Of a DNA stretch of 64,000 nucleotides, positions 5,329-21,294 are shown in pieces. The first letter of the stretch is position 1. Each line of letters starts with the position of its first letter. Origin of the DNA: Candidatus Doudnabacteria bacterium (GTDB lineage: Bacteria > Patescibacteriota > Doudnabacteria > UBA920 > O2-02-FULL-48-8); contig JAIFWV010000002.1 in NCBI GenBank assembly GCA_019659055.1, positions 26,047 to 90,046 of the forward strand, read 5' to 3'. A program made the translations under genes and the position numbers. Below the pieces are notes generated by a model. The model searched no databases and had not been told where the DNA came from. It saw only the letters and a list, made by a program, of their open reading frames with translations.

Positions 5329-5912
5329 ATGCAATTTTTTTGCTATAAATACCTTACGGCAAAAACAAAACATTTGGTCTTTGGATTCGTGGGAGACTCC
5401 GGGTCTGGCAAATCCACTCTCATGATCGAACTTCTCAATTTCTTCCCGCATCTTGAGATAATCAAATCCACTTCCACCAGAGCGCGGCGCGACGACACTG
5501 ACGATTTGTTCTACAAGCTGGTCGGTATGGATTATATGGACAATCCCGAAAACCAGAAGAATTTCCTCAATCACGAAATCTATGCGGGCAATCATTACGT
5601 CTACGAGCGCTCTATCCTCGACCAGGTTCTGCGCTCACATTGCGGCATGTTTGCCATCATCGAATCCGCTGTGCCAAAAATCCAGAAAGCAGGATACGAT
5701 GTACGACTCATCAAAGTCGTCCCAATTGTGACTGGGATTTGGATCGGACTCGAGAGCGCCAGAGCGAAGACCAGCTTCGCGCCACGCAAGGCGGATTGGT
5801 TTTTGATCTCGTTATCGAAAACTCATTTCGGCCCGGCGGATTGGAACAATCAGTCGAGACTGCCGCAAAATTCATTCAGGACCAAATCCACGGGCACCAC
5901 CCCGGGAATTGA
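5329..5912 (+). pseudogene. Guanylate-kinase-like P-loop protein with apparent frameshift near 5725
   Basis: GDSGSGKST, STSTRARR, EIYAGNHY in frame 5329; kinase-like C-terminus (FDLVIEN..LEQSVETA) lies in the -1 frame ending 5912. Confidence 0.65.
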
Positions 5913-5960
5913 CAGAACCCCCCAGAACAGGTATAAATAGGAATCATTAACGGAGGATTC

Positions 5961-6227
5961 ATGAGTATCTTGGATCGACTCTTTGATTTTTTCCATCGTA
6001 CCGAGGACACCCGGGCCACTCCTGTCTTGGAATACGTGGCTCCTCCCCGCGAAGTCACCAAGTACCATCTGCACGACCACGAGTTCGAGGGTCTGGTCGA
6101 TCACTACTTGGCAGACGAGTACTACATCGACGTGGAGCGGGCGAAGCTCCACCTCAAAGACTGCAAGGAATGCACCGACGTTTTCTGCGGTTTCTGGAAT
6201 CGCATGAGACGGCAGAAGGTCGCCTAA
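5961..6227 (+). CDS. Small zinc-finger protein, zf-HC2/ZAS-like (HxxxCxxC)
   Basis: GGAGG RBS; H..x25..HLKDCKEC. Confidence 0.7.
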   Translation: MSILDRLFDFFHRTEDTRATPVLEYVAPPREVTKYHLHDHEFEGLVDHYLADEYYIDVERAKLHLKDCKECTDVFCGFWNRMRRQKVA

Positions 6228-6502
6228 TGTCTCGCTACAGAGGACTAGGACGAGCTCGAACCCGGGCCAACCGGGGCGCGCGCGAGAGCGCAGACATACG
6301 GTTACTAGAGGAAGAATACCTGAGACTCCATCCCGAGATCCGGGGGTTCGAGGACAGAATCTGCTTAATAGCCCCGAACTGCCCTGATTTTGATCGCAGA
6401 CTCCCGTTCAGAATTCCGTACTGCGATCCCCATGTGCGTGAGTGCGAAAAATGCCAGGAAAAAATGGCAGCATCCGGATTCCCATATCCAAAGGAGCGTT
6501 AA
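6227..6502 (+). CDS. Small HxxxCxxC zinc-finger protein
   Basis: TAATG coupling to upstream gene; HVRECEKC with upstream Cys residues. Confidence 0.65.
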   Translation: MSRYRGLGRARTRANRGARESADIRLLEEEYLRLHPEIRGFEDRICLIAPNCPDFDRRLPFRIPYCDPHVRECEKCQEKMAASGFPYPKER

Positions 6503-6741
6503 TGCCAGTCACAAAACTTGCTTCGGCGGTAAACGCGATCACCATCCCAGCCGATGACCTGGTTCAGACGGTCAGTGAGCACGAGAGACTGGGCGAGCGC
6601 ATAATCGCTACAGTCCCAGGAGGACTTCAACTCAAAAGGACCGGAAGCGGGCGCAATAGCGTGATCGAAGTCATCCCGACTTCTTTCACCCTCATTCTCG
6701 GGCAAGAGAGACACCGCGACTACCGAAACGGTGAATCCTAA
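6502..6741 (+). CDS. Hypothetical protein
   Basis: AAGGAG RBS, TAATG coupling, followed by terminator-like hairpin at ~6749-6786. Confidence 0.6.
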   Translation: MPVTKLASAVNAITIPADDLVQTVSEHERLGERIIATVPGGLQLKRTGSGRNSVIEVIPTSFTLILGQERHRDYRNGES

Positions 6742-6854
6742 TCGCTATCGCGGCGTGGACGTACATACGTCCCGCCGCTTTTTTTATTAATTGCTTGCGC
6801 TCGCTAGCATTATTTTTATTTGTTAAAATATTTTCAAACCCTACGGAGGCCCTA

Positions 6855-7076
6855 ATGGATTTTCAGGAGAAATCCGTCAGCTTTCATCAGTTCACTGCAG
6901 ACGTGGACAAGCTGAGAATTTTGATGATGTGCTATCGGACTTGCGAACAACCCAAAAACACCAACCCTGACACTGACGAGGTCGTAAACGCTTACAATCA
7001 TATGTTTGGGCATGGCGGACGATGCCAAGAATGCTTCCCCTATGCCGTCAAGCTACTCAGTCTCCTGGAAAATTAA
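6855..7076 (+). CDS. Small HxxxCxxC zinc-finger protein
   Basis: GGAGG RBS; C..x26..HGGRCQEC. Confidence 0.65.
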   Translation: MDFQEKSVSFHQFTADVDKLRILMMCYRTCEQPKNTNPDTDEVVNAYNHMFGHGGRCQECFPYAVKLLSLLEN

Positions 7077-7130
7077 AAACGGCGCGCCTCCTTTTTTGAA
7101 GGCCGCCGTTTTCGTTTTCCAATTATTTAT

Positions 7131-7237
7131 TTAGCGAGGCATTTGTAAAAGCAACCCGCGGAGGACGACGGTCCGAGCGCGTAGGCCGAAATTTTAGCAA
7201 AAATTTACGGCCGGTGCTTTTACAAATATGCCGAGCG
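7131..7237 (-). repeat. ~107-nt structured repeat element, copy 1 (immediately after fusA stop)
   Basis: Homologous to reverse complement of 19749-19857 with compensatory stem changes. Confidence 0.8.
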
Positions 7238-7239
7238 CC

Positions 7240-9372
7240 TTATTGTCCGACTTGTCCCACGCGGACTTTGCCAGATTCGCCGATAATTTTCTCGGCCACA
7301 TTTCTTGGCACTTCCTCGTATTTGAGAAACTCCATAGTGTAGGAAGCCTGTCCCTGGGACATGGATCGGATTTGGGTGGCGTAGCCAAACATTTCCGCCA
7401 GCGGGACTTCTGCGTCAATTATTTTGAGGTTGCCGCGATCGGTCATTTCAAGGATTTTGCCGCGCTTGGCGTTGAGGTCGCCGATGACATCGCCCATGGC
7501 TGATTCCGGGGTCGTGACCTCGACTTTCATAATCGGTTCGAGAATGATTGGGTTGGCTTTTTTCACGGCGGACTGGAAAGCCATGGATCCGGCAATTTTG
7601 AAAGCGATTTCAGAAGAGTCAACCTCGTGGTAACTGCCATCGTAGAGCGTGGTTTTGACGTTGAGCACTGGGAATCCGGCAATAACGCCGCGATCCTCTG
7701 CTTCCGCAATACCTTTTTCTATCGGTTTGATATATTCCTTGGGTACGGTGCCGCCAACGATTTCATTTATAAATTCATTGCCTTTCTCTGGATCATCCTG
7801 CGGTTCGATTCGTATCCAGACGTGACCATACTGACCCTTACCGCCGGTCTGGCGGATGTATTTGCCTTCGGCATCAGCTTTACCGCGAATAGTTTCTTTG
7901 TAAGCAACTTGGGGTTTACCAACATTGGCCTCGACTTTGAATTCGCGCTTCATGCGGTCAACCAAAATTTCCAAGTGCAGTTCGCCCATACCCGCAATCA
8001 AAGTTTGCTGGACTTCTTCGTCAGTGCTGACTCGGAAAGTCGGATCCTCTTCTGCGAGTTTTTGCAAAGCCAAACCCATCTTTTCTTGATCGGCTTTGGT
8101 CTTTGGTTCGATAGCAACCGAAATAACCGGTTCTGGGAATTTGATCTTCTCAAGCATTACAGGGAAATCGACATCACAAAGCGTATCGCCAGTGAAGGTA
8201 TCTTTCGGCCCGACCAGGGCCGCGATATCGCCGGAATGAACTTCCTTAACCTCTTCGCGGGAATCGGCATGCAATCGGACCAAGCGGCCAACACGTTCTT
8301 TGTTTCCGGAACGGGCGTTTAGAATATATGAACCGGCTTGAAGGACTCCTGTGTAAACTCGGAAGAACGCCAATTTGCCGACAAAGGGGTCAGTTGCGAT
8401 TTTGAATGCCAAGGCTACAAACTTGTCGCTATCGTTTGGAGTCAGTAAAATTTCTTCTTGAGTCTTGGTATTGATAGCCTTAATCGGGGGCTTATCTAAC
8501 GGTGAGGGCAGGTAGTTCACTACCGCATCCAAGAGCGAAGTCACGATAAGTCCGCGTCCATCTCCGCCGAGGACTGGGAAAAACTTTCCCGACAAGGTCG
8601 AGGTTCGGATAGCTTTTATCAACTCCTGGTCGCTGATTTCCTCGCCGGCCAAATATTTTTCCATGAGAGCATCATCTGATTCGACAACTTTTTCTATGAG
8701 CTTCAACCGGTACTCGCGCGCTTTCTCAAGCATGTCGGCTGGGACTTCGCCTTCGGTAAAGGTCTTGTCCTTGTGCTCCTTGTATGTATAGGATTTCATC
8801 TTCACCAAATCGACAATGCCGTTGATGTCTTTTTCAAACCCAATCGGTAGTTGGATCGGGAAGGCGTTGGGCGACAAGCGCTTGTGAATCGCATCCAAAG
8901 ATTTATAAAAATCGCCGCCAGTCTGGTTGATCTTGTTTATAAAGCACATGCGGGGTACTGCGTATTTGTCGGCTTGGCGCCAGACGGTCTCGGACTGAGG
9001 TTCTACACCCATCTTACCGTCGAAGACCACGACTGCGCCGTCGAGCACGCGTAAAGATCGCTCGACTTCGACTGTGAAGTCCACGTGTCCGGGGGTGTCG
9101 ATGATGTTGATGCGGTGAGTGTCGGGAGATTTACCGCCAGATTGCAGTGTCCGCGACCAAAAGCTGGTGGTGGCCGCCGCGGTAATCGTGATGCCGCGTT
9201 CGCGTTCCTGCTCCATCCAGTCCATGGCAGTGTTGCCTTCGTGGACTTCGCCAATCTTGTGGATCTTGCCGGTATAAAACAAAATCGACTCGGTAGTGGT
9301 GGTCTTACCGGCATCGATGTGGGCAATAATCCCGATGTTTCTGGTTTGTTCTAGGCTGTATTCTCTAGGCAT
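7240..9372 (-). CDS. fusA: Elongation factor G
   Basis: [44 protein letters not shown]. Confidence 0.99.
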
Positions 9373-9394
9373 TTAAAAAATTTTCAGTTGTAAA

Positions 9395-9898
9395 TTATCT
9401 TCGCTGGAATCGGGCAAAGTGGGCAAAAGCTTTATTGGCTTCGGCCATGCGGTGCACGTCTTCGCGCTTCTTGATAGCCGCACCCTGCTTGTTGAAGGCT
9501 TCCATAAGTTCGGTGGCCAGTTTTTGGGCCATGGGTTTGCCTTTTTTGCCGCGGGCGGCGTCGATAATCCATTTCATGCCGAGCGCGGTCTTCCGCGGCT
9601 CTTGCACTTCCATAGGCACTTGGTAGTTGGCACCGCCAATACGGCGGCCTTTGACTTCCAGAATCGGACAGACATTGCGTACTGCCTGCTCAAAAATCAT
9701 TTTGCCATCGGTTTTGACCCCGTCCTTGGCTGGCATTTCTTTTTCGATAATATCCAAAGCGCCATAGACGACTTTATTGGCAATAGTTTTCTTGCCGCGT
9801 TCCATGACGTAGTTTATAAACTTCGACAGCTTGACGCTGTTATACTTGTGGTCCGGATCCACCGGATGCTTCTTGTATGATCGTGCTTTTCGTGGCAT
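9395..9898 (-). CDS. rpsG: 30S ribosomal protein S7
   Basis: MPRK..KFINYVMERGKK..RRIGGANYQVP..HRMAEANKAFAH. Confidence 0.98.
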   Translation of the reverse strand: MPRKARSYKKHPVDPDHKYNSVKLSKFINYVMERGKKTIANKVVYGALDIIEKEMPAKDGVKTDGKMIFEQAVRNVCPILEVKGRRIGGANYQVPMEVQEPRKTALGMKWIIDAARGKKGKPMAQKLATELMEAFNKQGAAIKKREDVHRMAEANKAFAHFARFQRR

Positions 9899-9906
9899 AT
9901 ATTTGG

Positions 9907-9960
9907 TCGTGATTCTTGAAACGTGGATCGTGAATCGCTTCACGTCTCACGCTTCACGTT
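9907..9960. repeat. Heptamer-unit inverted repeat hairpin (same family as 900-954)
   Basis: tcgtgat tcttgaa acgtgga tcgtgaa ... tcacgtc tcacgct tcacgtt. Confidence 0.7.
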
Positions 9961-10374
9961 TTATGGTCTCTTGGCTCCGTATTTAGATCGGGACCGCTTG
10001 CGGCCTTCGACGCCGCCGGCATCGAGCTTGCCGCGGACTATGTGATAGCGCATACCGGCCAAATCTTTGACGCGGCCGCCGCGAATCATGACCACCGAGT
10101 GCTCCTGTAAGTTGTGGCCGATGCCCGGGATATAGGCGTTGACTTCCATACCATTGCTCAGGCGGACCCGGGCAAATTTGCGGATAGCTGAGTTTGGTTT
10201 TCTCGGAGTCATGGTCGAGACTTTGATGCAGACCCCGCGCTTAAATGGGGATCCTTTGCGGATGGTATAGGTTTCTCCCTTAAGCGAATTGTAAACGCGC
10301 TCAAGTGCCGGAGACTTGGATTTATAAAATGACTTGGTTCGTCCTTTGCGGACTAATTGGTTGATTGTAGGCAT
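9961..10374 (-). CDS. rpsL: 30S ribosomal protein S12
   Basis: [37 protein letters not shown]. Confidence 0.99.
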
Positions 10375-10502
10375 GTGCGAAATTAAAACGGCAGATCTTG
10401 CCGTTGCAACTCAAACGGACTTAAATCTATTAAATATTTGTACCTGCAGATAATAACAGGTTTTTTGCCTCCCGTCAACCCTGTTTCCAATCCTCACTTC
10501 TA

Positions 10503-10531
10503 TTGACAAAATCACCAAAATGTTATATATT
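10503..10531 (+). promoter_or_regulatory. Sigma70-type promoter, divergent from rpsL
   Basis: TTGACA followed ~15-17 bp later by TATATA/TATATT. Confidence 0.55.
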
Positions 10532-10571
10532 TGTGAGTCGCAACGGAATTCTTTACAGTGGGAGGCTTAAG

Positions 10572-10793
10572 ATGCCAAAGAAGCAAAAGACCCTTCAGCA
10601 CAGTTTTCAAGTAAGATTCAGCGAAAAAACCATGGCGCAAATCATGGAACTCCAGGAGCATTACGGGGCGATTACAATCGCTGAAACAATCCGCCGTGCA
10701 GTCGAAGAACGTCACAAAGTAATGGAAAAGCAAACAAAAGGATTCTCAGTGTTCGGAAAGAGGGACTCCGAAACAATTGAATTCCTTCTCTAA
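10572..10793 (+). CDS. Ribbon-helix-helix (CopG-like) DNA-binding protein
   Basis: GGAGG RBS; FQVRFS beta strand + two helices (..AETIRRAVEE). Confidence 0.6.
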   Translation: MPKKQKTLQHSFQVRFSEKTMAQIMELQEHYGAITIAETIRRAVEERHKVMEKQTKGFSVFGKRDSETIEFLL

Positions 10794-10803
10794 CGGAGGG
10801 TTT

Positions 10804-11103
10804 ATGGGTGCCAAGAAAGGTTTGCTAAGTGGCAATAAATTTAATGGCAGGCATACTACAGTAATAGACGCTGCCATTCCGATGGTAATAGCGGCAAGCA
10901 AGCGGCCGGAAGTTACAAAGATCGTACTGAGCATCATCCGGCAAATTGGCCCAGGGCCGCAGAACCTAAAATTCAAACCAATACCAGCGGGACTTCAGAT
11001 GACCATCCGGAGTACCAACGCCAAGCAGGAATTTTATCTCTACACCTCAAGCCCCGACCTTACCAAGAAGGAATTGGAAAAAGCGTGGGCAAAGGAGGCC
11101 TAA
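10804..11103 (+). CDS. DUF2103-like protein
   Basis: HTTVIDAA..IRSTNAKQEFYLYT resembles DUF2103 (recalled, not searched); GGAGG RBS. Confidence 0.55.
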   Translation: MGAKKGLLSGNKFNGRHTTVIDAAIPMVIAASKRPEVTKIVLSIIRQIGPGPQNLKFKPIPAGLQMTIRSTNAKQEFYLYTSSPDLTKKELEKAWAKEA

Positions 11104-11172
11104 CGGCAGATTCGCAGCAAATTGCGAAACTGCCTTTTTTATTTGCTAAAAATCACCCAAATGGCCTAAGTC

Positions 11173-11201
11173 TTGACAAAATTGCCAAAAAGGAGTATAA
11201 T
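11173..11201 (+). promoter_or_regulatory. Perfect consensus sigma70 promoter
   Basis: TTGACA-17bp-TATAAT. Confidence 0.8.
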
Positions 11202-11277
11202 TACTAGTTACGATCAAAACGGTTGTAACGCTTTAGAGTACAGCAAAGCCCACATATTTTGGGGCAAGGAGGACAGC

Positions 11278-11913
11278 ATGTCGTACATTGCAAACGTGTT
11301 CGGTGACCTGGACGATCAGAACAAGTACACCGACGACCTGTTGGCACAACTGCTTGCGCAACTCTTCGAGAAGCCGGCGGCGTGTGTCGATCAGGACGAC
11401 CGCTGCTCTTCCAAGCCCTTGAGCGACTCCGACACGAGCATCACGCTCGATTGCGGCAAGATCGTCAAGCGCTGCAGCTACCACACGAAGGTGTTGTCGG
11501 TGCTCGAGACGGAAGTCCGCACCGTCTTCGCGGGTGTCGCTGTCAAAGCCATCCGCGAAGTCCAGAACGCGCGGGCGGCTGAGAAGGCCCGGATCGCGGC
11601 CGAGAAGAAGCTCTTCCGCGACGAGATCCGCAAGCACCTGGCGCGCAGCGTCGGTGTCACGGTGGAAATCGTAACCGAGGAGGACGTGACCGCGAAGATC
11701 GCGGCGATGACCGAGGACCAGAAGTACAAGCTCCTCGACATCGTGCTCAAGCGCGACCAGCCGGCGAAACCCGTCGTCAATGCGACGACGAAGCCCGGCC
11801 AGAAAAACCAGAAGCCCGCGAGCCCGCGGCCGACCCTGGTTCACACCAATCGACCCATGGGTGACGTCGCGCACCCCGGCGATCTCCGCCTCACTCAGGC
11901 CGCGAATCGCTAA
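11278..11913 (+). CDS. Hypothetical protein (Cys/His cluster, coiled coil), GC-rich
   Basis: AAGGAGG RBS, strong GC3 bias, terminator at ~11945-11979. Confidence 0.7.
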   Translation: MSYIANVFGDLDDQNKYTDDLLAQLLAQLFEKPAACVDQDDRCSSKPLSDSDTSITLDCGKIVKRCSYHTKVLSVLETEVRTVFAGVAVKAIREVQNARAAEKARIAAEKKLFRDEIRKHLARSVGVTVEIVTEEDVTAKIAAMTEDQKYKLLDIVLKRDQPAKPVVNATTKPGQKNQKPASPRPTLVHTNRPMGDVAHPGDLRLTQAANR

Positions 11914-12027
11914 CCGCAACCCACCGTCAGGGCAAATGACGAGGTGGCGAAGGTACCAGTTACCTTCGCCATTTTTTTATTCCAAAAAGAAAAGGGCGGG
12001 TAGTTTTAGAACTACCTCGCCCTATTT

Positions 12028-12357
12028 TTAATGCCGATTGAGTCGGTCGCGGCGGTCTGCTCGAAACTGTTCGAGCTTGTCGTGCAGTTCGCGCCGGCTT
12101 TCGGGGTCCGGAACACTTCCAGCCAAGAGCAGATCAATAGTCTGGAGCAAACCGTCAATCTGACTCCGGCGTACGACGTCTTTGAGGGCTGTCGAACTCC
12201 CCTCTTTGAGGCCAATCAGCAAATCGCGAAAGTCTTCGAACAACTCCTTCACCGAATCAATGGCTTCGCCGCGCTCCAAAACTTTGGCACAGCGATAAGC
12301 CGCTCGCTTTTGGAGGTAAAGCTGGCGCTTAAGCTCCACAATCTGTTCATTGACCAT
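12028..12357 (-). CDS. Hypothetical helical protein
   Basis: AAGGAGGTG RBS upstream of ATG. Confidence 0.6.
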   Translation of the reverse strand: MVNEQIVELKRQLYLQKRAAYRCAKVLERGEAIDSVKELFEDFRDLLIGLKEGSSTALKDVVRRSQIDGLLQTIDLLLAGSVPDPESRRELHDKLEQFRADRRDRLNRH

Positions 12358-12383
12358 CTCACCTCCTTGAGTTTGGTTTCGTT

Positions 12384-13019
12384 TTAGAGCTGAAAATCTG
12401 TTCCCAACAAAAATTTAACACATGCAGAGACGAGTGGCAAGAGGATAGACGAAAAAAGTCCGGTGAACAGGAATAAAAAAATCAAAATAAACCCAAAGCG
12501 CTCAAGTTCCAGGATCCAGTACATAAGACCGCGGTCCACAAACCCGAGCGCACTGGCCAAAACTTTGGATCCGTCCAAAGGCGGGATCGGTATGAGGTTA
12601 AAAATTCCCAAAATGAGGTTGAGGAGGATGATTTGAAATACCAGTGCTTGCCCTTGTTCGGAGATTCCGGGGAAAAACCGAAACACCAGGCTTGCCGCTC
12701 CGGCCAAAAGGAAATTAGTAGCCGGTCCGGCCAACGCCACGAGTATCATGTCGCGCCGGAAATTCCTAAGGTTCTGGTAATTTACAGGCACGGGCTTGGC
12801 CGCGCCAAATATAAACGGCGAACCGACCAGATACAAGATTGCAGGCAGGAGAATCGACCCAAACGGATCGATATGCGGGATCGGGTTGAGAGTGAGACGG
12901 CCCGAATACCTTGCCGTAGGATCACCGAGCCAATCGGCAACTAACCCGTGCGCCACTTCGTGGAAAATCACGGAAAACAGCAGGATGAAGATAAAAAATA
13001 TGACGCTAAATGGATCCAT
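12384..13019 (-). CDS. Site-2 protease (M50 family)
   Basis: HEVAH, AGPATN, FNLIPIPPLDG. Confidence 0.93.
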   Translation of the reverse strand: MDPFSVIFFIFILLFSVIFHEVAHGLVADWLGDPTARYSGRLTLNPIPHIDPFGSILLPAILYLVGSPFIFGAAKPVPVNYQNLRNFRRDMILVALAGPATNFLLAGAASLVFRFFPGISEQGQALVFQIILLNLILGIFNLIPIPPLDGSKVLASALGFVDRGLMYWILELERFGFILIFLFLFTGLFSSILLPLVSACVKFLLGTDFQL

Positions 13020-13025
13020 GGGATA

Positions 13026-13098
13026 GAATTATGAATTTCGAATTATGAATTATGCTTATATTACATAGCCATAATTCCTGATTCCAGATTCCTAATTC
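13026..13098. repeat. Heptamer-unit inverted repeat (GAATTAT / ATAATTC)
   Basis: gaattat gaatttc gaattat gaattat ... ataattc ctgattc cagattc ctaattc. Confidence 0.7.
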
Positions 13099-13165
13099 GG
13101 ACCCAAGGCATTGACCAAAGCCTGTCCGTATGCTAAACTCTTTGGGTACCTTAATTGTAACACAT

Positions 13166-13351
13166 ATGAGAAAATGTACGATCTGCGGCAAAGGCTATAT
13201 GAATGCCATGAGACGATCACACTCGATGCGGGCGACGAAAGTCAAACTTTATCCCAATTTGCAATGGCTTAAGACCGAGCATGGCCGGATAAAAGCCTGT
13301 ACCAAGTGCATCAAGACTCAAGCCAAACGGTTAGCCGCTGTTACCGCATAA
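13166..13351 (+). CDS. rpmB: 50S ribosomal protein L28 (zinc-binding form)
   Basis: MRKCTICGK..SHS..PNLQ..CTKCIK. Confidence 0.92.
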   Translation: MRKCTICGKGYMNAMRRSHSMRATKVKLYPNLQWLKTEHGRIKACTKCIKTQAKRLAAVTA

Positions 13352-13380
13352 AAAACCTCTTCAGGAATGAAGAGGTTTTT
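13351..13380. terminator. Bidirectional terminator
   Basis: aaaaacctcttca gga tgaagaggttttt-type hairpin between convergent genes. Confidence 0.7.
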
Positions 13381-13398
13381 AAATTTCCGATTTACAAT

Positions 13399-14073
13399 TT
13401 ATTTTGTTACTGCAAATGTGTCTTGCCAGGCTTTTTGGCCTTCTTGATCGGCAAAGAGCGCATACTGGCCGATGCTAAAGAAGAAATATTTGTCGGGGTG
13501 ACTCTTGTCCATCCAGAAATAGCTGGCGCCGTTGCTGGCTGAATAAACCGGCGGGCATTTATCGGCGTTTTGCCAGAAAGGCGCGTTGGGATCGGTACTT
13601 TTGGGATATGCGATCACAGCGACTTCCTGATTCTCGGGGATGACCGGCGCGTCGGCGTCATAGCTTTTGTAATAATCAGCCAAAGTCAAAGGATAGCAAT
13701 CCTTGACTGAATAATTGGCCAGGAATTTCTTTTGGATTGATGCAATGAGAGTATCTTTCGGATCTTTGGTAAAACCCTGTACCCATTGCCCTTGTTCCAT
13801 AGGGTTTGCGGTATAGTAAACATAAATCTTGTCCCCGGCCTCTTTGGCGTCGGTGTCAGTTTTCCCGTCGCCATCCTGATCGGCGCTGTATGTAAACTTC
13901 ACTCCCAAGCTGTCTGAAGTAAAGGTTTTGACCGTGTCTTGATTATTATTGGAGTTGCCAGTGTTGGTTTGGGTGGTCCCCTGATCTTTAGGTTTAATCT
14001 TCACATACGGCAAGAGAAAATAACCTATTGCCAGCAGTACGACTACAAAAATGATCGTTTTGAGGGTTGTCAT
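13399..14073 (-). CDS. Membrane-anchored extracellular protein
   Basis: N-terminal TM helix, T/N-rich linker, DxDGDG motif. Confidence 0.75.
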   Translation of the reverse strand: MTTLKTIIFVVVLLAIGYFLLPYVKIKPKDQGTTQTNTGNSNNNQDTVKTFTSDSLGVKFTYSADQDGDGKTDTDAKEAGDKIYVYYTANPMEQGQWVQGFTKDPKDTLIASIQKKFLANYSVKDCYPLTLADYYKSYDADAPVIPENQEVAVIAYPKSTDPNAPFWQNADKCPPVYSASNGASYFWMDKSHPDKYFFFSIGQYALFADQEGQKAWQDTFAVTK

Positions 14074-14105
14074 TCGAGGAAAAATTAATAGTTAACCTGA
14101 TCTTA

Positions 14106-17100
14106 TCAGAATAACGCCGGCTTGCCTAGACTTGCCACCACCGAGACATAACGGTCCTCGTTGAGGATCTCAGACAGGGAATGCGCGGGCATTGCTCCAT
14201 TGAACAGATACCCTTGCGCGCGATTGCACATATTTTCCCGCAAAAACGCCAGCTGATTTTTGGATTCCACTCCTTCGGCTGTTATTTCCATGTTGAGACT
14301 GCGCCCGAGCGTGATAATTGATTTCGCAATTGCCGAATTTTGCATATCCATGGGGATACCCTTCATGAAAGTTCTCTCGATTTTGAGCATATCCACCGGA
14401 AAATGTTTGATGTAGCGCAAAGACGAATACCCGGTCGAAAAATCATCGAGGCAGAATCTGACTCCCCGTTCGCGCAAGGCATTCATGATGCTTGTAATAT
14501 TGTCTTCATTTTCGGCCAGGATTGATTCTGTAAGTTCGAGTTCCAGAAAACGAGCGTCAAATTTGGATTCTTCGATAGCGCCGATGAGGACATTCTCAAA
14601 ATTCTTCTGCTTGAATTGCCGGGCCGAAAGATTGATAGCCATAATCATTTTGTAGCCGGCATCGTGCCACATCTTCCCCTGCTTCAAGGCTTCTTTGAGT
14701 ATCCATTCGCCAATGGGTTCTATGAGTCCGTTGGCTTCTGCCAATGGGATAAACCGGTCAGGCAAAATCAGCGTCATATCCGGCCTCTGCCAACGGATAA
14801 GCTCTTCTGTCCCAACTATTTTACCTGTGGCGACATCTACTTGCGGCTGGTAAAACAGCACGAACTCCTGGTTTTCCAGAGCGTGTCGAAGCTTGGAATC
14901 CAGAGTTAGCCGTTCGTAGGCCGCCGAATTCATTGTGGTCGTATAGAACTGATAGGTATTGCGGCCGTATTCCTTGGCGCGATAAAGTGCGGCCTCGGCA
15001 TTTCTGAGCAGACTCGAGGCCTCTCTGCCGTCGTATGGATAAAGGCTGATACCAATACTCGGGCTGATAAACAGCTCGTGCTGGTCAAGGTAAAACGCGG
15101 GCCGGAAATCCTCCAAAATTTTATTGGCAAGCTTAGCCGCTTCTTCTTCGGTCTGGATATCGGCCATAAGGATTGCAAATTCATCACCGCCAAGCCGAGC
15201 TAAGACATAATCTTCTTTGACACAGCTGCGTACGCGCAAAGCGACTTCCTGAATCAGGCGATCGCCCAAAGCATGACCCAGAGATTCGTTTATTTGCTTA
15301 AATCGATCGAGATCGAGGAGCATAATTCCCAAATTCTGACCGTTGGCTTCGGCATCCGAAATAGCTTGCGCGAACCGTTCATTGAGGTAAGTCCGATTGG
15401 GCAGATCCGTGAGAGTGTCGTGATGGTACTGATACTGCAGGTTTTCTTCCGCGAGCCGGCGTTCGGTGATATCGCGAAAGTTTACAACCATGGCCCGAAT
15501 ACTCGGGTGGTGCAAAAGATTTGTACCTACTCCCTCAATCCAGCGATAGTTGCCATTGGCATGGCGGCAGCGGTATTGTGCGGTAATCGTCTGGTCCGGC
15601 TTGCGCAAGCTCGTGGCCAGAAGCTCGGCCACCAGCGGGGCGTCGTCGGGGTGCACTATATTTCTAATATTTACTCCGTGCATTTCTTCCGATGTGTATC
15701 CAAGCATACGCTGGACCGGCATGGTCGCAAATGTCAGGACACCGTTGGCATCGAGGAGTGCCACGCCGTCTGAGGTGTTATCGATAATAGCGCGGTACCG
15801 CTCTTCGCTGACCTGAAGTTTCTGTTCCATGAATTTACGCTCACGGATCTCTATCTGAGCTTCCCGATAGAGTAAGGCGTTGTCGATGGCCATGCCGGCG
15901 CGTCGGCCGAGCTCTTCGAAGAATTTAAGATCCTTCTCCTCATAGCGCTTGTTGGACTCTGCCCAGATCAAGGACATGACCCCGAAGACTTTATCGCGTG
16001 CGACCAAAGGCACCATAAGTGCGGACTTAATACCGAGCTTGGACGTGAGTTCATAATGCTCCGGATCGCGCGAACTGGCGCGGAGCATGTCGTCGGTAAT
16101 CTCCTTATAGATTTCAGCTTTTCCGGTGGTGATGATTTTCCAGGTCCCACGCTCCGGATCTTTGTGATTCGGATACTTTCTTGCCAATTCCACAGCAAAT
16201 TTTATTTTTTCCGGGTCCACGTGTTCTACTGCGACTTGCTTTGTGTTTTCGCCGTCAGGAGTGAGAATTTCGATTCCGCACCAATCGGCAAATTTGGGGA
16301 CGGCTAATTTCGCCACTCGCGCCAGTGTTGTCTCAAAATCCAAAGACGATGATAATAATTTCGTAGCTTCGGATAAAAACACGACCCCTTCGTCGGCTTG
16401 TTTGGATTTCGTAATGTCGCGAGCCACGGCCGAGGCACCCACGACTTTGCCGGAATTATTTTTTATTGGCGAGACCGCCACGGATATGTCCAAAATCCGT
16501 CCGTCTTTGGTTTTCCTTTTGGTCTCATAGTGATTAACACCCCTGCCGAGTCGGATCTGCGCCAAAAGCATTCTGGTGTCATCCGGAAAGCCTTCCGGAA
16601 CCAAGACTGAAACATTCTTGCCGAGAATTTCTTGTTCGGTATAGCCATATATCCTTACCGCTCCTTTATTCCAGCTCGTGATGTTGCCTTCTAGATCTTT
16701 GCCCATGATCGCGTCCTCAGACGATTCAACTATAGCTACAAGTTTGAGATTGGCCTCGAGGGCGGTTTTTTGAGGAGTGATGTCGCGCAGATACACAGCA
16801 AGGCCGTCTTTGGCGGGGTACACTGAGGATTCTATCCACTTCGGCATATTTCCCGGTTCAGAAAATTTTTCTTCGTAACGCAGGGATTTATTTTCCAACA
16901 AGGCTTCCTGCAGTTTGGAATAGGTCGCGGTCTGCATTGCGTTTGGAAATTCCTGAAAAATATTTTTTCCCAGAAGCTCGCTCCGGTTCCGCTGTAACAA
17001 CTGTTCGGCTTGGCGGTTGACGTATGTAAAGTTCCAATCTTTATCCAACGCAAAAAAGCCGTCAGTAATACTTTCGAGAATATGCTGGTTCCGGCGATTG

Positions 17101-17600
17101 ATTTTTTCGTATTCAGACTGTATATTTCTCTGCGCTGTGATATCTCGAAAAATACTCACAGCAAATCGGACCTTGCCCTCGCTGTCCCTGATGGGGCGAG
17201 CTTTGATTTCTGACCAAAACTCTGATCCCGTTTGCCGATTTCTGGAAAGTACAATCTTACTCGGTACCTCGAGCCCGTCCAGAGCAGATCTGGCTGGCAG
17301 GTCATTGAAGCTCACCGGGTTCCCGTTCTCATCAAAAATCTCAAACTTGTTTATGGCGTCGGAAACTAAATGATTTATAATCTCGGATTTATTATTGAAA
17401 TCCATAAGGGCGACCGCTGCGGCATTGGCAAAAACCACCCGGCGGCTTTCATCCTGAACGATTACGCCGTCGGCAATAGCCTGAAAAATTTCTTCTAAGT
17501 TTTGTTTCGCGTCGAGTTGCCCGAAAAGCCGCCCTAAAGTTACATCCGAATTTTGCTGATTAGTGTCTGAAATCATACGATAAACCTTCATTGTGGCCAC
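14106..17600 (-). CDS. Multi-PAS/GAF diguanylate cyclase-phosphodiesterase (GGDEF-EAL)
   Basis: Four PAS-like domains, GAF, RLGGDEF, EEL/DDFSTGYSS/EGVE/QGY; start may be 17576. Confidence 0.93.
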   Translation of the reverse strand: MATMKVYRMISDTNQQNSDVTLGRLFGQLDAKQNLEEIFQAIADGVIVQDESRRVVFANAAAVALMDFNNKSEIINHLVSDAINKFEIFDENGNPVSFNDLPARSALDGLEVPSKIVLSRNRQTGSEFWSEIKARPIRDSEGKVRFAVSIFRDITAQRNIQSEYEKINRRNQHILESITDGFFALDKDWNFTYVNRQAEQLLQRNRSELLGKNIFQEFPNAMQTATYSKLQEALLENKSLRYEEKFSEPGNMPKWIESSVYPAKDGLAVYLRDITPQKTALEANLKLVAIVESSEDAIMGKDLEGNITSWNKGAVRIYGYTEQEILGKNVSVLVPEGFPDDTRMLLAQIRLGRGVNHYETKRKTKDGRILDISVAVSPIKNNSGKVVGASAVARDITKSKQADEGVVFLSEATKLLSSSLDFETTLARVAKLAVPKFADWCGIEILTPDGENTKQVAVEHVDPEKIKFAVELARKYPNHKDPERGTWKIITTGKAEIYKEITDDMLRASSRDPEHYELTSKLGIKSALMVPLVARDKVFGVMSLIWAESNKRYEEKDLKFFEELGRRAGMAIDNALLYREAQIEIRERKFMEQKLQVSEERYRAIIDNTSDGVALLDANGVLTFATMPVQRMLGYTSEEMHGVNIRNIVHPDDAPLVAELLATSLRKPDQTITAQYRCRHANGNYRWIEGVGTNLLHHPSIRAMVVNFRDITERRLAEENLQYQYHHDTLTDLPNRTYLNERFAQAISDAEANGQNLGIMLLDLDRFKQINESLGHALGDRLIQEVALRVRSCVKEDYVLARLGGDEFAILMADIQTEEEAAKLANKILEDFRPAFYLDQHELFISPSIGISLYPYDGREASSLLRNAEAALYRAKEYGRNTYQFYTTTMNSAAYERLTLDSKLRHALENQEFVLFYQPQVDVATGKIVGTEELIRWQRPDMTLILPDRFIPLAEANGLIEPIGEWILKEALKQGKMWHDAGYKMIMAINLSARQFKQKNFENVLIGAIEESKFDARFLELELTESILAENEDNITSIMNALRERGVRFCLDDFSTGYSSLRYIKHFPVDMLKIERTFMKGIPMDMQNSAIAKSIITLGRSLNMEITAEGVESKNQLAFLRENMCNRAQGYLFNGAMPAHSLSEILNEDRYVSVVASLGKPALF

Positions 17601-17805
17601 AAAAAAATACGCCCAGCGTATTTACACTACTTTTAAGTATTTAGCAGTCGATTTATCTTGTGTTTCCTCATATCTTAGTTATTCTACCCCAATAGAGAAT
17701 TTTTTATCGAGCTCTACATGCACAAAAAATACTGGTATAACAACCACTTTATCGTATAAAGATCCAAATATTATTGCTTACGCTGAATTGTCTGTATAAA
17801 ACTAT

Positions 17806-18195
17806 TTAGTTTAACTGCGATGTGCAATGCGGACAGCGGGAAGCTTTGATAGGGATAAGAGTATGGCAAAATGCGCACTCTTTCTCACTTATGTCCGCCT
17901 CGGGCTTGCGGCGGAATCGGTTCATTTGTTTGACTACCAAAAAAATTGCGAAGGCGATAATCAAAAAGTTGATTATGCTATTGATAAACGCGCCGTAAGC
18001 CAACACTGCTCCGGAGGGAAAAGTCCACTTCAGGTTTGAGAAATCGATATTGCCCAAGATAAGTCCAAATGGCGGCAGGATAATGTCATGGACAAGCGAA
18101 TTAACTACTGCACCAAAAGCGGCGCCAATAATGACGCCGATTGCTAAGTCTATGGCATTGCCTTTGATGGCAAATTCTTTGAACTCCTTAAACAT
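17806..18195 (-). CDS. mscL: Large-conductance mechanosensitive channel with C-terminal Zn ribbon
   Basis: [28 protein letters not shown]; CAFC..CPHC tail. Confidence 0.93.
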
Positions 18196-18205
18196 CACTA
18201 AAGCA

Positions 18206-18892
18206 TTATAGAGTAAACTTGAATGTCGCCAGGATATCGGCGGAGGCGCCGGTCTTGTGAGTGATTTTGTAAGTCCCCCCGTTTTTGGAAATAAGTAAGA
18301 TCGATGTCCCTGACTTCAAAATAATTTCGCGCGCATCGTATCCGTTGAATTTAACATCTTGGGCGGAGGTGATATTGCCGTCTTCGGCGGATCCGATTTG
18401 TCCCCGGACCGAAGTTATGGCTTTGCTTACAAATTCAATAGTAACCGTTTCACCGGAATTATCTGCACCCGTAGATGCATCGTGAATAACTACGATCTTG
18501 CTCTTGTCGAAATCCCCAGTGGCTTCGTAACTCGGCGGGTACATAACGCTGAAGCTGGTACTGGTATAAGTTTTCCAAGTGTTGGCGTCCTGGCTCGGGC
18601 TTTGCTCTTGGGCTTTATGAATCACTGCCGGTGACCAACGAGCGTCATCGAAAACCATAAAGTCGCGCAGGCCATACACTGGCCAGTAGTAAACCGCAGC
18701 CCCGGCAATGGCCACTGCCAAAAGCAGGAGCAGAAATCCCGAAACATGAAACCGGCTGGGACGTTCGGTCTTGAGATTCATTTGTGGCATTATTCTTTCC
18801 GGTTTTCTAATTTCGGGTTCTGGCGCAAGCATTGGTTCTTCAACCGGTTCTAACGCTTGAGGTTGGATGTTGTTTATTTTCTTTCTTGGCAT
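18206..18892 (-). CDS. Single-TM protein with PsbP-like extracellular domain
   Basis: TM helix; WKTYT..FSVMYP..ILATFKF pattern. Confidence 0.65.
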
Positions 18893-19007
18893 GGTTTTGT
18901 TTTAAATGTGTAGGTTAATCATAGCGCTATTAATTAATTTTGGCAATTCCGGCAGAAAAAAACCCGGTACAGCGCTCAAGAGCACTGCCGGGTTTGAGAT
19001 TTCGAGA

Positions 19008-19575
19008 CTACGAGGAAAGGAGACGATATCTGAGGAACACCACATGTTGAGATCCTCGCTGCATTTCAGATCGGCTAAACCTTTCGCCGTCCTGCAGTCT
19101 GCGCCTCCTTGGAAGTTTGGAGAACTGAGCCACGATCATGCCTCCGATTTCCTCATCGCTCGGAGGATTGTCGGGATCATAGAGGGGTATCATGAGCGAG
19201 TATTCGCTCCTGAGAATCCTCTGGACTTCGTGCTGGTCATTACGAATAACACTGAGAAGCCGATCGCCAGACGATAGAATTTGCACCTCCTGGACTGGGA
19301 TTTCGGATGGAGTACCCAAGTTGAACTTTTTTTGGAGCTCACCTGCATCCGAAGTGTTGCATCCGACGAGCATCAGCTGTTTAGGGCCGAGTCCGGTCCT
19401 CTGTCTTTTCGTTGTCAGCACTTTTCCCCTCCTCGGGCAATATCGTCCGGTAAGACTTCGCCTCTCCTTGCAAAAAAAGTTGGATGTTGTCTCCTGGATA
19501 GAGTGCCATCAACTCTTGGATCTTCTCGGACGGGATGGATCCCGCGAAAGGATGACAATATTTTACAAGTCCCAT
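19008..19575 (-). pseudogene. Hypothetical gene apparently split by a 1-nt frameshift near 19422
   Basis: AGGAGG-preceded ORF 19381-19575 continues into ORF 19008-19421 if one base of GGGGAAAA is removed (EEGK|VLTTKRQ). Confidence 0.45.
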
Positions 19576-19669
19576 ATTCCTCCTCTTACGACTCCTAAGC
19601 TTATACTATATAAGAGCGTTTGTAAACCCTTGATGAATTAACAGTAAGCAACTATAATAATTCGGTCGG

Positions 19670-19743
19670 CGGGGTGTAGTATACCGGTAGTACGCGCCCA
19701 TGGGGTGGGTGTAGACAGGGTTCAATTCCCTGCACCCCGACCA
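19670..19743 (+). tRNA. tRNA-Pro(GGG)
   Basis: CGGGGTG acceptor/CACCCCG ACCA, anticodon loop ATGGGGT, T-loop GGTTCAATTCC. Confidence 0.92.
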
Positions 19744-19748
19744 AATAA

Positions 19749-19857
19749 CGCTCGCATTGATTGTAAATCTACCGGCCGTAAATTTCTGGTGAAATTTCGG
19801 CCTACTCGCTCGGACCAGTCGTCCTGCGCGGGTTAGATTTACAACAAAGCTCGCTAA
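19749..19857 (+). repeat. ~107-nt structured repeat element, copy 2 (immediately after tRNA-Pro)
   Basis: Reverse-complement homolog of 7131-7237. Confidence 0.8.
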
Positions 19858-20002
19858 TTTAATATTATTGTAATAAATAATTTAGAAAAAATCATCACTA
19901 TTTTGTGGTGATTTTTTCTTTGCAAAAAAAAGAGGCTCAAGACCTGCACGTATACCGTGCTAGATCGTGAGCCCCGCTTCTGGCCGAGGTGACCAGAGAT
20001 TG

Positions 20003-20185
20003 CTAACTTCCAAGAGGTGGCGCATCCATCCAGTAGTCTCCGACGTATTTCTTGCGCGGCGGCTTTTCCTGGATCGATCCGGGAGAGTTGATTTCCTCGG
20101 TCCGATACGCGAGCTGGTTTCCATCGCGAACCTTGCTACACTGCCGAATCGGAGGATCGTCGCTCTTCTTGTCAGTCTCGTCCAT
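20003..20185 (-). CDS. Small hypothetical protein
   Basis: AAAGGAG RBS before MDETDKK. Confidence 0.45.
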   Translation of the reverse strand: MDETDKKSDDPPIRQCSKVRDGNQLAYRTEEINSPGSIQEKPPRKKYVGDYWMDAPPLGS

Positions 20186-20210
20186 ACACACTCCTTTGGT
20201 GGAAACGTTG

Positions 20211-20378
20211 TCAGTCGTCGTCGAATGATTCTCCGCGACGGGGGTCGTCCTCACGCAACAGATTGGGATGAATGCGGCATGGCTTGCTGAAAGCGGAGAT
20301 ATCGGTCCTCGCAGACCGGCGGGTCGGTTTCGCCTCAGCCGATCGATGATCCGGAGGTGGTGAGTCTTTTTCTCTCAT
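20211..20378 (-). CDS. Small hypothetical protein (55 aa, absent from ORF track)
   Basis: TAAGGAG RBS; MREKDSPPPDHR...ESFDDD*. Confidence 0.4.
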   Translation of the reverse strand: MREKDSPPPDHRSAEAKPTRRSARTDISAFSKPCRIHPNLLREDDPRRGESFDDD

Positions 20379-20386
20379 ACTGCTCC

Positions 20387-20644
20387 TTAATCGTCATGAG
20401 GATGACGAAATCCTTCCGGGGGGCTTCGGCGCTGTCTCTTCGGTTTGGGTTCGCCGTCGCGCCGCCGTTTGAGATGTTCGATCCGCAAGCTATAGACCCG
20501 GACGACATCGTCCTGGCCGAGCTTGCCGGCTCGCAAGATTTTCCTCGCCAGCCGTTCGATCTGCGGCTGAATACCGCGGACGGTGTTCAATGACGGCCTG
20601 CGGCGGCCATCTGATTCGAGCGTATGCGCTGACCAGCAGCTCAT
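20387..20644 (-). CDS. Small basic hypothetical protein
   Basis: Tightly packed in operon; AAGGAG upstream. Confidence 0.45.
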   Translation of the reverse strand: MSCWSAHTLESDGRRRPSLNTVRGIQPQIERLARKILRAGKLGQDDVVRVYSLRIEHLKRRRDGEPKPKRQRRSPPEGFRHPHDD

Positions 20645-20646
20645 CC

Positions 20647-20946
20647 TTAGATCTCCTTTTGCGGGATTATCCGAACCAGATCAAACTTGCAGTCCTCGTC
20701 GTCTACCAGCAGCGGTTCGTACCGGAAGAATTCTCCTTGCAGGTACAGTTGCGTATGACCTCCTGGGTCTGAGGCCAGGATGAGGATTTCACCCGGCCGG
20801 CAAAAACGGTTCAGTTCAGTGTGGCAGGTGTAGTTGAGCCCTCTGTTTGATTTGCGTATGCCGTCTGCGGCAATCGCAAGCTGTCGCGAGCGCGTTTCGT
20901 TCTCGTTTGCCGTCTGGCGCGCTAGTCGATCTTGTCGGACAACCAT
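20647..20946 (-). CDS. Hypothetical protein
   Basis: AAGGAGG RBS before MVVRQD. Confidence 0.55.
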   Translation of the reverse strand: MVVRQDRLARQTANENETRSRQLAIAADGIRKSNRGLNYTCHTELNRFCRPGEILILASDPGGHTQLYLQGEFFRYEPLLVDDEDCKFDLVRIIPQKEI

Positions 20947-21294
20947 TGCAGAATCCTCCTTGGACTCGTTTCGAATTTGTAGGTTCAAATTTTGTAAGAC
21001 AAAAATTTATCTCACAGAGTTTGGACCACAAGCGATAAAAAATCCGACCAGGTGGTCGGTTCATCATAGTTTTCGCTTTAAGCTTGGCAATTAGCGTTTT
21101 CTATATGAACCGACATGCACGGGGACGTAATCAAACTTAACCATGCCCAAAATAATTTGGGTGAGTCGAGTCAATGCGTTGTGCAGAAGGTTTTTCATAT
21201 AGTTATCAACAAACCTAGTATAAGTTTAACAATAATAATGCTCTGCGTCAAATGAAAAGACCAAGAACTTGAGTGTTCCTGGTCTTTTTAGCTC

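What the first reader, a model, noticed from the sequence alone, without database searches (positions are those of the whole stretch)
7131..19857. Two-copy ~107-nt three-way-junction element with compensatory mutations, at 3' ends of fusA and tRNA-Pro
Seen: 7131-7237 and the reverse complement of 19749-19857 align throughout. The closing stem covaries (TTGTAAAAGC/GCTTTTACAA vs TTGTAAATCT/AGATTTACAA), while arms GGAC-loop-GTCC and GGCCGAAATTT-loop-AAATTTACGGCC are conserved with variable loops. Both start within ~5 nt of the upstream gene end, in the same sense as that gene. Both are followed by AATAAATAATT and by a convergent islet of orphan small genes. Inference: a new structured RNA (processing or ribozyme-like) or a folded ssDNA recombination site (attC-like) marking gene-acquisition hotspots.
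Basis: partly seen in the sequence, partly recalled or inferred. Interest (0 to 1): 0.75.

Follow-up and report, generated by a model that had tools for sequence, protein, structure and literature searches.

The report
Gene-end three-way-junction repeat of Doudnabacteria
The two folded 105-107-base stretches are real but are only 2 of 14 copies of an apparently undescribed, protein-free repeat that comes and goes right behind stop codons and tRNA ends in ultra-small (Patescibacteria) bacteria, and it most likely spreads as a selfish element recognised as folded single-stranded DNA rather than being a ribozyme or a marker of gene islands.

Summary
The repeat is real (83% identity, fold z about -6, no Rfam match) but not two-copy: 14 copies in this genome, copies in 21 of 25 family genomes (Ca. 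Doudnabacteria), and a related core in other Patescibacteria. Pairing is kept while sequence changes (98% of cells paired; 39 of 40 pairs with double changes). The better-folding strand, with near-invariant tandem G.A pairs, is antisense to the neighbouring gene; its 3' end lies within 8 nt of a stop codon or tRNA end in 66 of 114 copies (control 5 of 570). Copies are mobile: empty and filled orthologous sites (fusA 5 of 24, mreC 2 of 24), nesting, grouping by genome rather than site, and target-end duplications in relatives. The islets and AATAAATAATT are not part of it; attC boxes (0 of 83) and an integron integrase are absent. Best reading: a REP/MITE-like selfish repeat acting as folded ssDNA, moved by an unidentified enzyme; no GIY-YIG, RAYT, Xer or RT gene was tied to it. 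This scan reported the family before on another copy in this genome and on other genomes.

The parts
7133..7237 (+). Copy 1 of the repeat (105 nt); + is the structured 'A' strand (AGCGAG...CGAGCG), antisense to fusA
   Evidence: 124.9 bits
7134..7153 (+). P1 closing stem, 5' strand, with outer tandem G.A/A.G pair and A-tract next to the junction (pairs with 7215-7236)
7154..7182 (+). P2 arm: G(N)A/GA internal loop, GGAC/GTCC stem, GACG loop
7184..7212 (+). P3 arm: GGCCG-AAATTT stem with one bulged A, AGCA loop; flanked by invariant junction A and G
7215..7236 (+). P1 closing stem, 3' strand
7240..9372 (-). fusA (EF-G); its stop codon is 2 nt from copy 1
7075..7114 (-). Terminator-like hairpin after copy 1; a similar hairpin follows fusA without the element in congener G001 (empty site)
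7121..7131 (-). AATAAATAATT 1 nt beyond copy 1; not part of the family
5329..7076 (+). Convergent small ORFs between tuf and fusA (weak guanylate-kinase match, others no Pfam family); independent of the element
19670..19743 (+). tRNA-Pro(GGG); ends 5 nt from copy 2
19749..19855 (-). Copy 2 of the repeat (107 nt); - is the structured 'A' strand, antisense to the tRNA
   Evidence: 122.6 bits
19872..19882 (+). AATAAATAATT 16 nt beyond copy 2; not part of the family
20003..21067 (-). Convergent small ORFs without Pfam family downstream of copy 2

Best explanation
It is one of 14 copies in this genome of a protein-free three-way-junction repeat (about 105-145 nt) that comes and goes at the ends of housekeeping and tRNA genes in Doudnabacteria, and it most likely spreads as a selfish element whose folded single DNA strand, usually the one opposite the neighbouring transcript, would be recognised and moved by an enzyme supplied in trans that I could not identify. 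Shown: the copy number, the fold, the strand asymmetry, the polarity at gene ends, and gain and loss at orthologous sites. Inferred: (1) the A strand is what selection acts on, and the recognised features are the tandem G.A cap, the G(N)A/GA loop, the junction A and G and the bulged AGCA arm; (2) a new copy joins its A-strand 3' end to a cut near a gene end, in relatives with a 16-36-nt duplication of that end and a short target-complementary stretch beside the core; (3) copies survive in tight operon junctions because the opposite strand also folds (about -45 to -50 kcal/mol as RNA), which would keep stop and next start close together. My guess for the enzyme, untested: a small Ssn-like GIY-YIG ssDNA nuclease with host repair (about 35%), host or Xer-type recombination (20%), a RAYT (15%), something else (30%).
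For: Multi-copy and patchy: 1-17 copies in 21 of 25 family genomes, up to 19 with the wider model. Pairing kept under sequence change: 25 of 40 pairs with double changes in a plain MAFFT/RNAalifold alignment of 20 copies; 98.0% paired and 39 of 40 in 83 copies aligned to the model, against 70% shuffled and 31-44% slid. Strand asymmetry: G.T 46 vs A.C 21; A strand more stable in 78 of 83 as DNA; outer GA in 80 and 78 of 83, three unpaired bases invariant. The A strand is antisense at 58 of 114 copies that abut a stop or tRNA 3' end but sense at 8 that abut a tRNA 5' end and at the tRNA-trailing relatives, so no single transcript orientation carries the fold. Mobility: fusA site filled in 5 of 24, mreC-mreD in 2 of 24 with different subtypes, hisS in 0 of 5 other genomes; identity 0.66 within a genome vs 0.53 at the same site in different genomes and 0.55 background; nearest neighbour in the same genome 32 of 77 (6.3 expected), at the same site 3 of 25; new copies nested in older ones at the same point of P3 in G014 and G015; three copies of the rplL end separated by two elements in G014; target duplications in 13 of 112 related loci vs 0.02% control, 10 of 16 with an antisense stretch across the junction; an in-frame copy inside a gene (L222).
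Against: No cognate enzyme was found: 0 of 125 small GIY-YIG hits bracketed by the element or its halves (3 near only through a shared tRNA), 0 GIY-YIG or RAYT in 125 related loci (control 11 hits in G000), no hit at 20 RAYT, four-helix-bundle, Xer and RT loci. Tandem-G.A stems are not enriched beside GIY-YIG genes (15 of 121 vs 224 of 2420 shuffles). Most Doudnabacteria copies show no target duplication (6 of 82 above the control 95th percentile). The same sites recur across genera (fusA, nrdJ, tRNA-Met, tRNA-Thr, tRNA-Pro), which old insertion plus gene conversion, or a useful RNA role, would also give. The A strand is also the more stable as RNA (73 of 83), so energy does not separate DNA from RNA. 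One search uses an alignment fitted to the model, and several loci are near-duplicates.
Confidence: 0.6

Rival explanations
1. A domesticated RNA element: the sense-strand hairpin protects or processes 3' ends of abundant mRNAs and tRNA precursors (REP-, ERIC- or RNase III-site-like), and copies are homogenised by gene conversion.
For: Tight placement 1-2 nt after stop codons (31 of 47) and 5-7 nt after tRNA ends; recurrence at core genes; sense strand folds at -45 to -50 kcal/mol; divergent subtypes occupy the same tRNA-Pro and tRNA-Met sites in G001, G002, G016; such roles are reported for other small repeats (PMC3184786).
Against: The conserved non-canonical pairs exist only on the strand that is usually not transcribed; most orthologous sites are empty (19 of 24, 22 of 24); fusA keeps its own terminator-like hairpin beyond the element; orientation to the transcript is mixed.
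Confidence: 0.2
2. An attC-like recombination site that closes gene cassettes and marks acquisition hotspots.
For: Same strand logic as attC (antisense strand more stable, more G:T pairs, purine-rich unpaired bases 68%); directly after stop codons; in one relative two copies with tRNA-end duplicates bracket cargo ORFs (L256).
Against: RYYYAAC/GTTRRRY at the ends in 0 of 83; no integron integrase (141 bits vs cut-off 265; XerD model 256); neighbours are essential genes and tRNAs, not cassette arrays; the fusA islet is present without the element; branched, not a simple hairpin.
Confidence: 0.08
3. A self-cleaving or retro-mobile RNA made from the A strand.
For: Three-way junction with strong covariation and G.U pairs on one strand; gene-end duplications resemble retro-insertion products.
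Against: No Rfam family; loops vary freely in length, so no loop-loop contact; only three unpaired positions invariant; no conserved promoter upstream (at most 0.18 bits per position); no reverse transcriptase in G000, G011, G014, G022.
Confidence: 0.07

Closest known systems
REP/REPIN elements with RAYT (Di Nocera 2013, PMC3733652; passages and abstract seen)
   Same: Short, multi-copy, palindromic, intergenic, close to gene 3' ends, within-genome families, one strand distinguished; a GYAG stands before the P3 arm in many copies.
   Different: One 105-145-nt branched unit, not 20-40-nt hairpins or their dimers; GYAG becomes TTAG or GTGAG in subfamilies; the RAYT genes of G000, G008, G011 carry their own unrelated hairpins.
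Ssn nucleases and NTS/SRM hairpins (Chenal 2025, PMC11893778; parts 1-5 of 11 read)
   Same: Strand-specific ssDNA structure as the recognised form; the genome holds 11 small GIY-YIG genes, one with NTS-like flanks.
   Different: No CGTC-tagged motif; not found bracketing any of 125 GIY-YIG hits; stems vary in sequence, whereas SsnA needs the stem sequence.
bcr1 of the Bacillus cereus group and SPRITE/RUP of pneumococcus (PMC3184786, PMC3049150; passages seen)
   Same: About 105-155 nt, gene-less, patchy between genomes; bcr1 keeps a branched fold by compensatory changes; SPRITE lies close to gene 3' ends.
   Different: No fixed 5-bp direct repeat as in bcr1, no U-rich tail as in SPRITE; fixed polarity with the structured strand antisense; common inside operons.
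Integron attC sites (PMC5027507; passages seen)
   Same: Structure rather than sequence conserved; antisense strand favoured by G:T pairs, purines and energy; sits right after a stop codon.
   Different: No R-box triplet or L box, branched fold, no IntI, no cassette arrays.
tRNA-targeting integrative elements with a replacement 3' end (own knowledge)
   Same: The related Patescibacteria subfamily duplicates tRNA 3' ends from the T loop.
   Different: No integrase or cargo in most cases; a short target-complementary stretch precedes a folded core; the two copies in this window show no duplication.

Membership tests
attC site | RYYYAAC / GTTRRRY core boxes at the ends | tested here: not met
   0 of 83 copies on either strand
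attC site | Integron integrase in the genome or clade | tested here: not met
   One tyrosine recombinase in G000, Xer-like; integron-integrase model below cut-off; other genomes not searched for it
attC site | Antisense strand folds better, with G:T and purine bias | tested here: met
   described in PMC5027507
attC site | Arrays of variable cassettes | tested here: not met
   Neighbours mostly core genes and tRNAs
REP/REPIN-RAYT | Same repeat flanks a RAYT gene | tested here: not met
   3 RAYT loci, no model hit; other hairpins there
REP/REPIN-RAYT | Invariant unpaired GTAG or CGTC tag at the foot of a short hairpin | tested here: not met
   GYAG is partly paired and varies between subfamilies
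REP/REPIN-RAYT | Dispersed, extragenic, near gene 3' ends, within-genome families | tested here: met
Ssn / SRM | Repeat brackets a small GIY-YIG gene | tested here: not met
   0 of 125 hits from the family genomes; not all of the roughly 160 listed hits were fetched
Ssn / SRM | Strand-specific ssDNA binding and cutting | not testable with these tools
   needs purified protein
MITE | Terminal inverted repeats | tested here: inconclusive
   Ends pair, but with conserved G.A mismatches and variable stem sequence
MITE | Fixed-length target-site duplication | tested here: not met
   Direct flank similarity above control in 6 of 82; no constant short duplication
MITE | Cognate transposon with the same ends | tested here: inconclusive
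   No half-elements in G000; none at the candidate enzyme loci; other genomes not scanned for halves
Known structured RNA or ribozyme (Rfam 15) | Match to a family model | tested here: not met
Known structured RNA or ribozyme (Rfam 15) | Self-cleavage or a discrete transcript | not testable with these tools
   needs in vitro assay or stranded RNA reads
SPRITE / intrinsic terminator | Stem followed by a U-rich tract on the sense strand | tested here: not met
   Neither copy listed as terminator-like; many copies lie inside operons

The most novel reading that the evidence does not exclude
A phylum-wide class of protein-free mobile elements that act as folded single-stranded DNA: a Y-shaped core with G.A caps is recognised by a host-supplied enzyme, a short target-complementary stretch beside the core guides insertion into the last bases of genes and tRNAs, the gene end is replaced, and pairs of copies can carry cargo genes; that is, a DNA-guided, attC-like insertion system without an integron.
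Probability: 0.15. Interest if true: 0.85.

Novelty: new variant of a known kind. Interest (0 to 1): 0.55.

Why it matters
Patescibacteria genomes are thought of as streamlined, yet this repeat inserts into the tightest junctions of essential operons and tRNA clusters and keeps an intricate fold on the non-transcribed strand. If it is moved as folded ssDNA, it is a new substrate type for a site- or structure-specific ssDNA enzyme, with a possible target-pairing segment that could be reprogrammed. It also warns that strong covariation in a three-way junction need not mean a functional RNA. The enzyme is unknown, so the mechanism stays inferred.

Tried and rejected
Islet or hotspot link: rejected. 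AATAAATAATT as part of the element: 2 of 14 copies. A conserved promoter or terminus motif in the A-strand 5' flank: at most 0.18 bits; the weak signal is partly start codons of the next gene, 18 of 113 at 10-19 nt. A target triplet like a stop codon: 16 of 45 non-stop copies vs 119 of 456 background, no support. GIY-YIG partner: none bracketed; one arm sequence shared between 4 of 83 copies and one GIY-flanking repeat; tandem-G.A enrichment not seen. RAYT, four-helix-bundle (PF05635), Xer and RT loci: no hit. A PD-(D/E)XK nuclease gene bracketed by two inverted related copies (L215): not found in G000, G011, G014, G376, and 4 homologous loci lack the element. Viral contigs: 0, 0 and 1 match; the one match lies in a coding frame without the fold; phages and plasmids: no match. 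Replichore rule: in complete genome G023, 9 of 9 clear copies have the A strand as leading-strand template, but this is confounded with gene orientation, and dnaB is bracketed by inverted copies in G011 and G014. Sequencing runs: none was listed, no evidence either way. An end-pattern scan for further subtypes in G000 found only 6 of the 14 known copies and nothing new, too insensitive to use. Literature searches that found no description of this repeat: (open-access library only; supplements not examined, and RNA-motif or repeat lists in supplements or subscription journals could hold it).
Full report
Observation. The two stretches are homologous (82.7% over 104 columns, E 7e-23; alignment). 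The exact limits are window 7133-7237 (+) and 19749-19855 (-), each reading AGCGAG...CGAGCG on what I call the A strand. Both strands of both copies fold far better than shuffles (RNA z -6.2 to -7.1, DNA z -5.3 to -6.9). Rfam gives nothing for the element (related loci). fusA ends 2 nt from copy 1 and tRNA-Pro(GGG) 5 nt from copy 2. The element is not two-copy: a covariance model finds 14 copies in the genome. AATAAATAATT is 1 and 16 nt from the two copies and beside none of the other 12.

Distribution. The model finds 1-17 copies in 21 of 25 family genomes; a wider model gives 17 of 20 in the family and 2 of 116 in the rest of the class. An exact pattern of the P3 arm hits 23 GTDB loci, 22 titled Ca. 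Doudnabacteria and one Patescibacteria. The counts are minima: subtypes with the same ends but other arms, missed by the model, sit at tRNA-Pro(GGG) in G002 and G016 and before tRNA-fMet in G001. The two-arm core also occurs elsewhere in the phylum: 9 genomes outside the family among 401 (reversed control 0) and at least 121 metagenome stretches. Nothing real was found in viral contigs, phages or plasmids.

Anatomy. P1 is a closing stem of about 20 bp, variable in sequence, capped by a tandem G.A/A.G pair (GA present in 80 and 78 of 83 copies) and with an A-tract at the junction. P2 has a G(N)A/GA internal loop and usually a GACG loop; P3 has a bulge and usually an AGCA loop; three unpaired bases are invariant in 83 of 83. 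A plain alignment of 20 copies gives 25 of 40 pairs with double changes; 83 copies aligned to the model give 98.0% paired cells and 39 of 40 such pairs, against 70% for shuffles and 31-44% for slid partners (this alignment leans toward the model). Template switching can perfect inverted repeats without selection (own knowledge), but it would erase the mismatches, and these are the best-kept part.

Which strand. Paired columns hold 46 G.T against 21 A.C on the A strand (two unsure pairs left out), and the A strand is the more stable in 78 of 83 copies as DNA and 73 of 83 as RNA. Among 114 distinct copies the A-strand 3' end lies within -3 to 8 nt of an opposite-strand stop codon in 47 (31 at 1-2 nt), of an opposite-strand tRNA 3' end in 11 and of a same-strand tRNA 5' end in 8; the other end is that close to a gene end in 4; control windows 5 of 570. 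Of 45 remaining copies, 7 stand just before a TTGAC (by eye). So the structured strand is usually antisense to the transcript, sometimes sense. This is the pattern described for attC bottom strands (PMC5027507, passages) and is the main reason to read the element as folded DNA; it is an inference, not a demonstration.

Context. Neighbours are fusA, tuf, rpsJ, rplC, rplL, nrdJ, dnaB, mreC, mrdA, groEL, hisS, lysS, greA, trxA, HU, murC, galE and tRNAs (NCBIfam on 85 of 129 neighbouring ORFs; tRNAs). The fusA-tuf junction is split in all family genomes where it could be read (tuf 671-910 nt away in 10, not seen in the available flank in 14, two of these cut by contig ends), and only 5 of 24 carry the element. 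Congener G001 has a similar terminator-like hairpin after fusA without it. The islets are therefore independent.

Mobility. mreC-mreD is an overlap or near-overlap in most genomes and is opened by the element in 2 of 24, by different subtypes; hisS carries it in G000 and in 0 of 5 others. Copies are more alike within a genome (0.66) than at the same site in different genomes (0.53; background 0.55); the four tRNA-linked G000 copies, including copy 2, form one clade (99/99). In G014 and G015 a new copy sits inside an older one, cut at the same point of P3. In G014 three copies of the last 34 nt of rplL alternate with two elements, each followed by a stretch complementary to the duplication junction. 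In the related subfamily 13 of 112 loci duplicate the upstream gene end (control 0.02%); of 16 such junctions at a lower cut-off, 15 are tRNA ends starting near the T loop and 10 have a 7-10-nt antisense stretch across the junction (several loci are near-duplicates). Tandem arrays (L268, L271), an in-frame copy in a gene I recognise from memory as tsaD (L222) and cargo ORFs between two copies (L256) also occur. Against: most Doudnabacteria copies, including both in this window, show no duplication (6 of 82 above control); 13 of 82 have flanks that pair with each other beyond control.

The enzyme. G000 has 11 small GIY-YIG genes, one RAYT, one Xer-like recombinase, five four-helix-bundle genes and no reverse transcriptase. 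The GIY-YIG genes have their own hairpins, one NTS-like, and several sit behind duplicated tRNA fragments interrupted by hairpins, a geometry like that of the related subfamily; Ssn proteins of this class cut ssDNA near strand-specific hairpins (PMC11893778, parts 1-5 of 11). But none of 125 GIY-YIG hits is bracketed by the element, none lies in 125 related loci, and tandem-G.A stems are not enriched beside them. RAYT, Xer, four-helix-bundle and RT loci give no hit. A PD-(D/E)XK gene bracketed by two related copies is not found in the element-rich genomes tested. The partner remains unknown.

Verdict. A real, strongly structured, apparently undescribed interspersed repeat that behaves as a mobile element. 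It works like REP/REPIN or bcr1-type repeats, with attC-like strand logic, but fails the membership tests for attC, REP-RAYT, Ssn-SRM, MITE, SPRITE and Rfam families. Nine searches of the open-access library found no description (listings only, except the five papers cited; supplements not seen). Earlier unchecked notes of this scan reached a similar reading on another copy in this genome and on other genomes; I do not count them as support. New variant of a known kind; interest 0.55.

Noticed in passing
G000 loci L091, L093, L095, L096, L099: Five of the 11 small GIY-YIG genes lie directly before tRNA genes; three (L091, L093, L095, and likely L096) follow a duplicated 5' tRNA fragment interrupted by one or two hairpins.
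   Followed up: partly
L092 (G000 C26:5311-5529): GIY-YIG gene between inverted NTS-like hairpins, a likely Ssn unit; the same arrangement is in G023 (L105).
   Followed up: no
L001 (G000 C28:5181-5600): Short RAYT-like gene (139 aa, below the NCBIfam cut-off) flanked by inverted GTAG-tagged hairpins unrelated to this element.
   Followed up: partly
L425:1585-1700, L428, L416: Divergent subtype with the same ends but other arms and a CTTCCAATG loop, at tRNA-Pro(GGG) and tRNA-fMet sites; the same loop occurs in the other arm of other subtypes, so arms look exchangeable.
   Followed up: partly
L415 and L038, after tRNA-fMet: Other complex G.A-rich structured inserts that end in a duplicate of the tRNA-fMet 3' end, in G011 and G004.
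   Followed up: no
L417 (G008 tRNA-Met cluster): A second repeat family of about 75 nt placed directly before two tRNA genes.
   Followed up: no
L046, L414-L417, L038 upstream of the tRNA-Met cluster: A conserved hairpin with a GGTGACATA loop between promoter and first tRNA in 6 of 8 genomes shown.
   Followed up: no
L215:1540-2319: PD-(D/E)XK nuclease gene, behind a PolB-type exonuclease gene, bracketed by two inverted copies of the related core; homologs in 4 of 201 phylum genomes.
   Followed up: yes
L256: Cargo ORFs between two related copies, each followed by a tRNA-Gln-like 3' end, like a small cassette.
   Followed up: no
window 7122-7149 (-) and 19838-19866 (+): The TTTACA in each copy's stem with the AT-rich flank scores as an outward sigma-70 promoter (10 and 9 of 12 matches); consensus match only.
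   Followed up: no
window 1592-2272: A glycerophosphodiester phosphodiesterase gene sits between rplC and rplD in the S10 operon.
   Followed up: no
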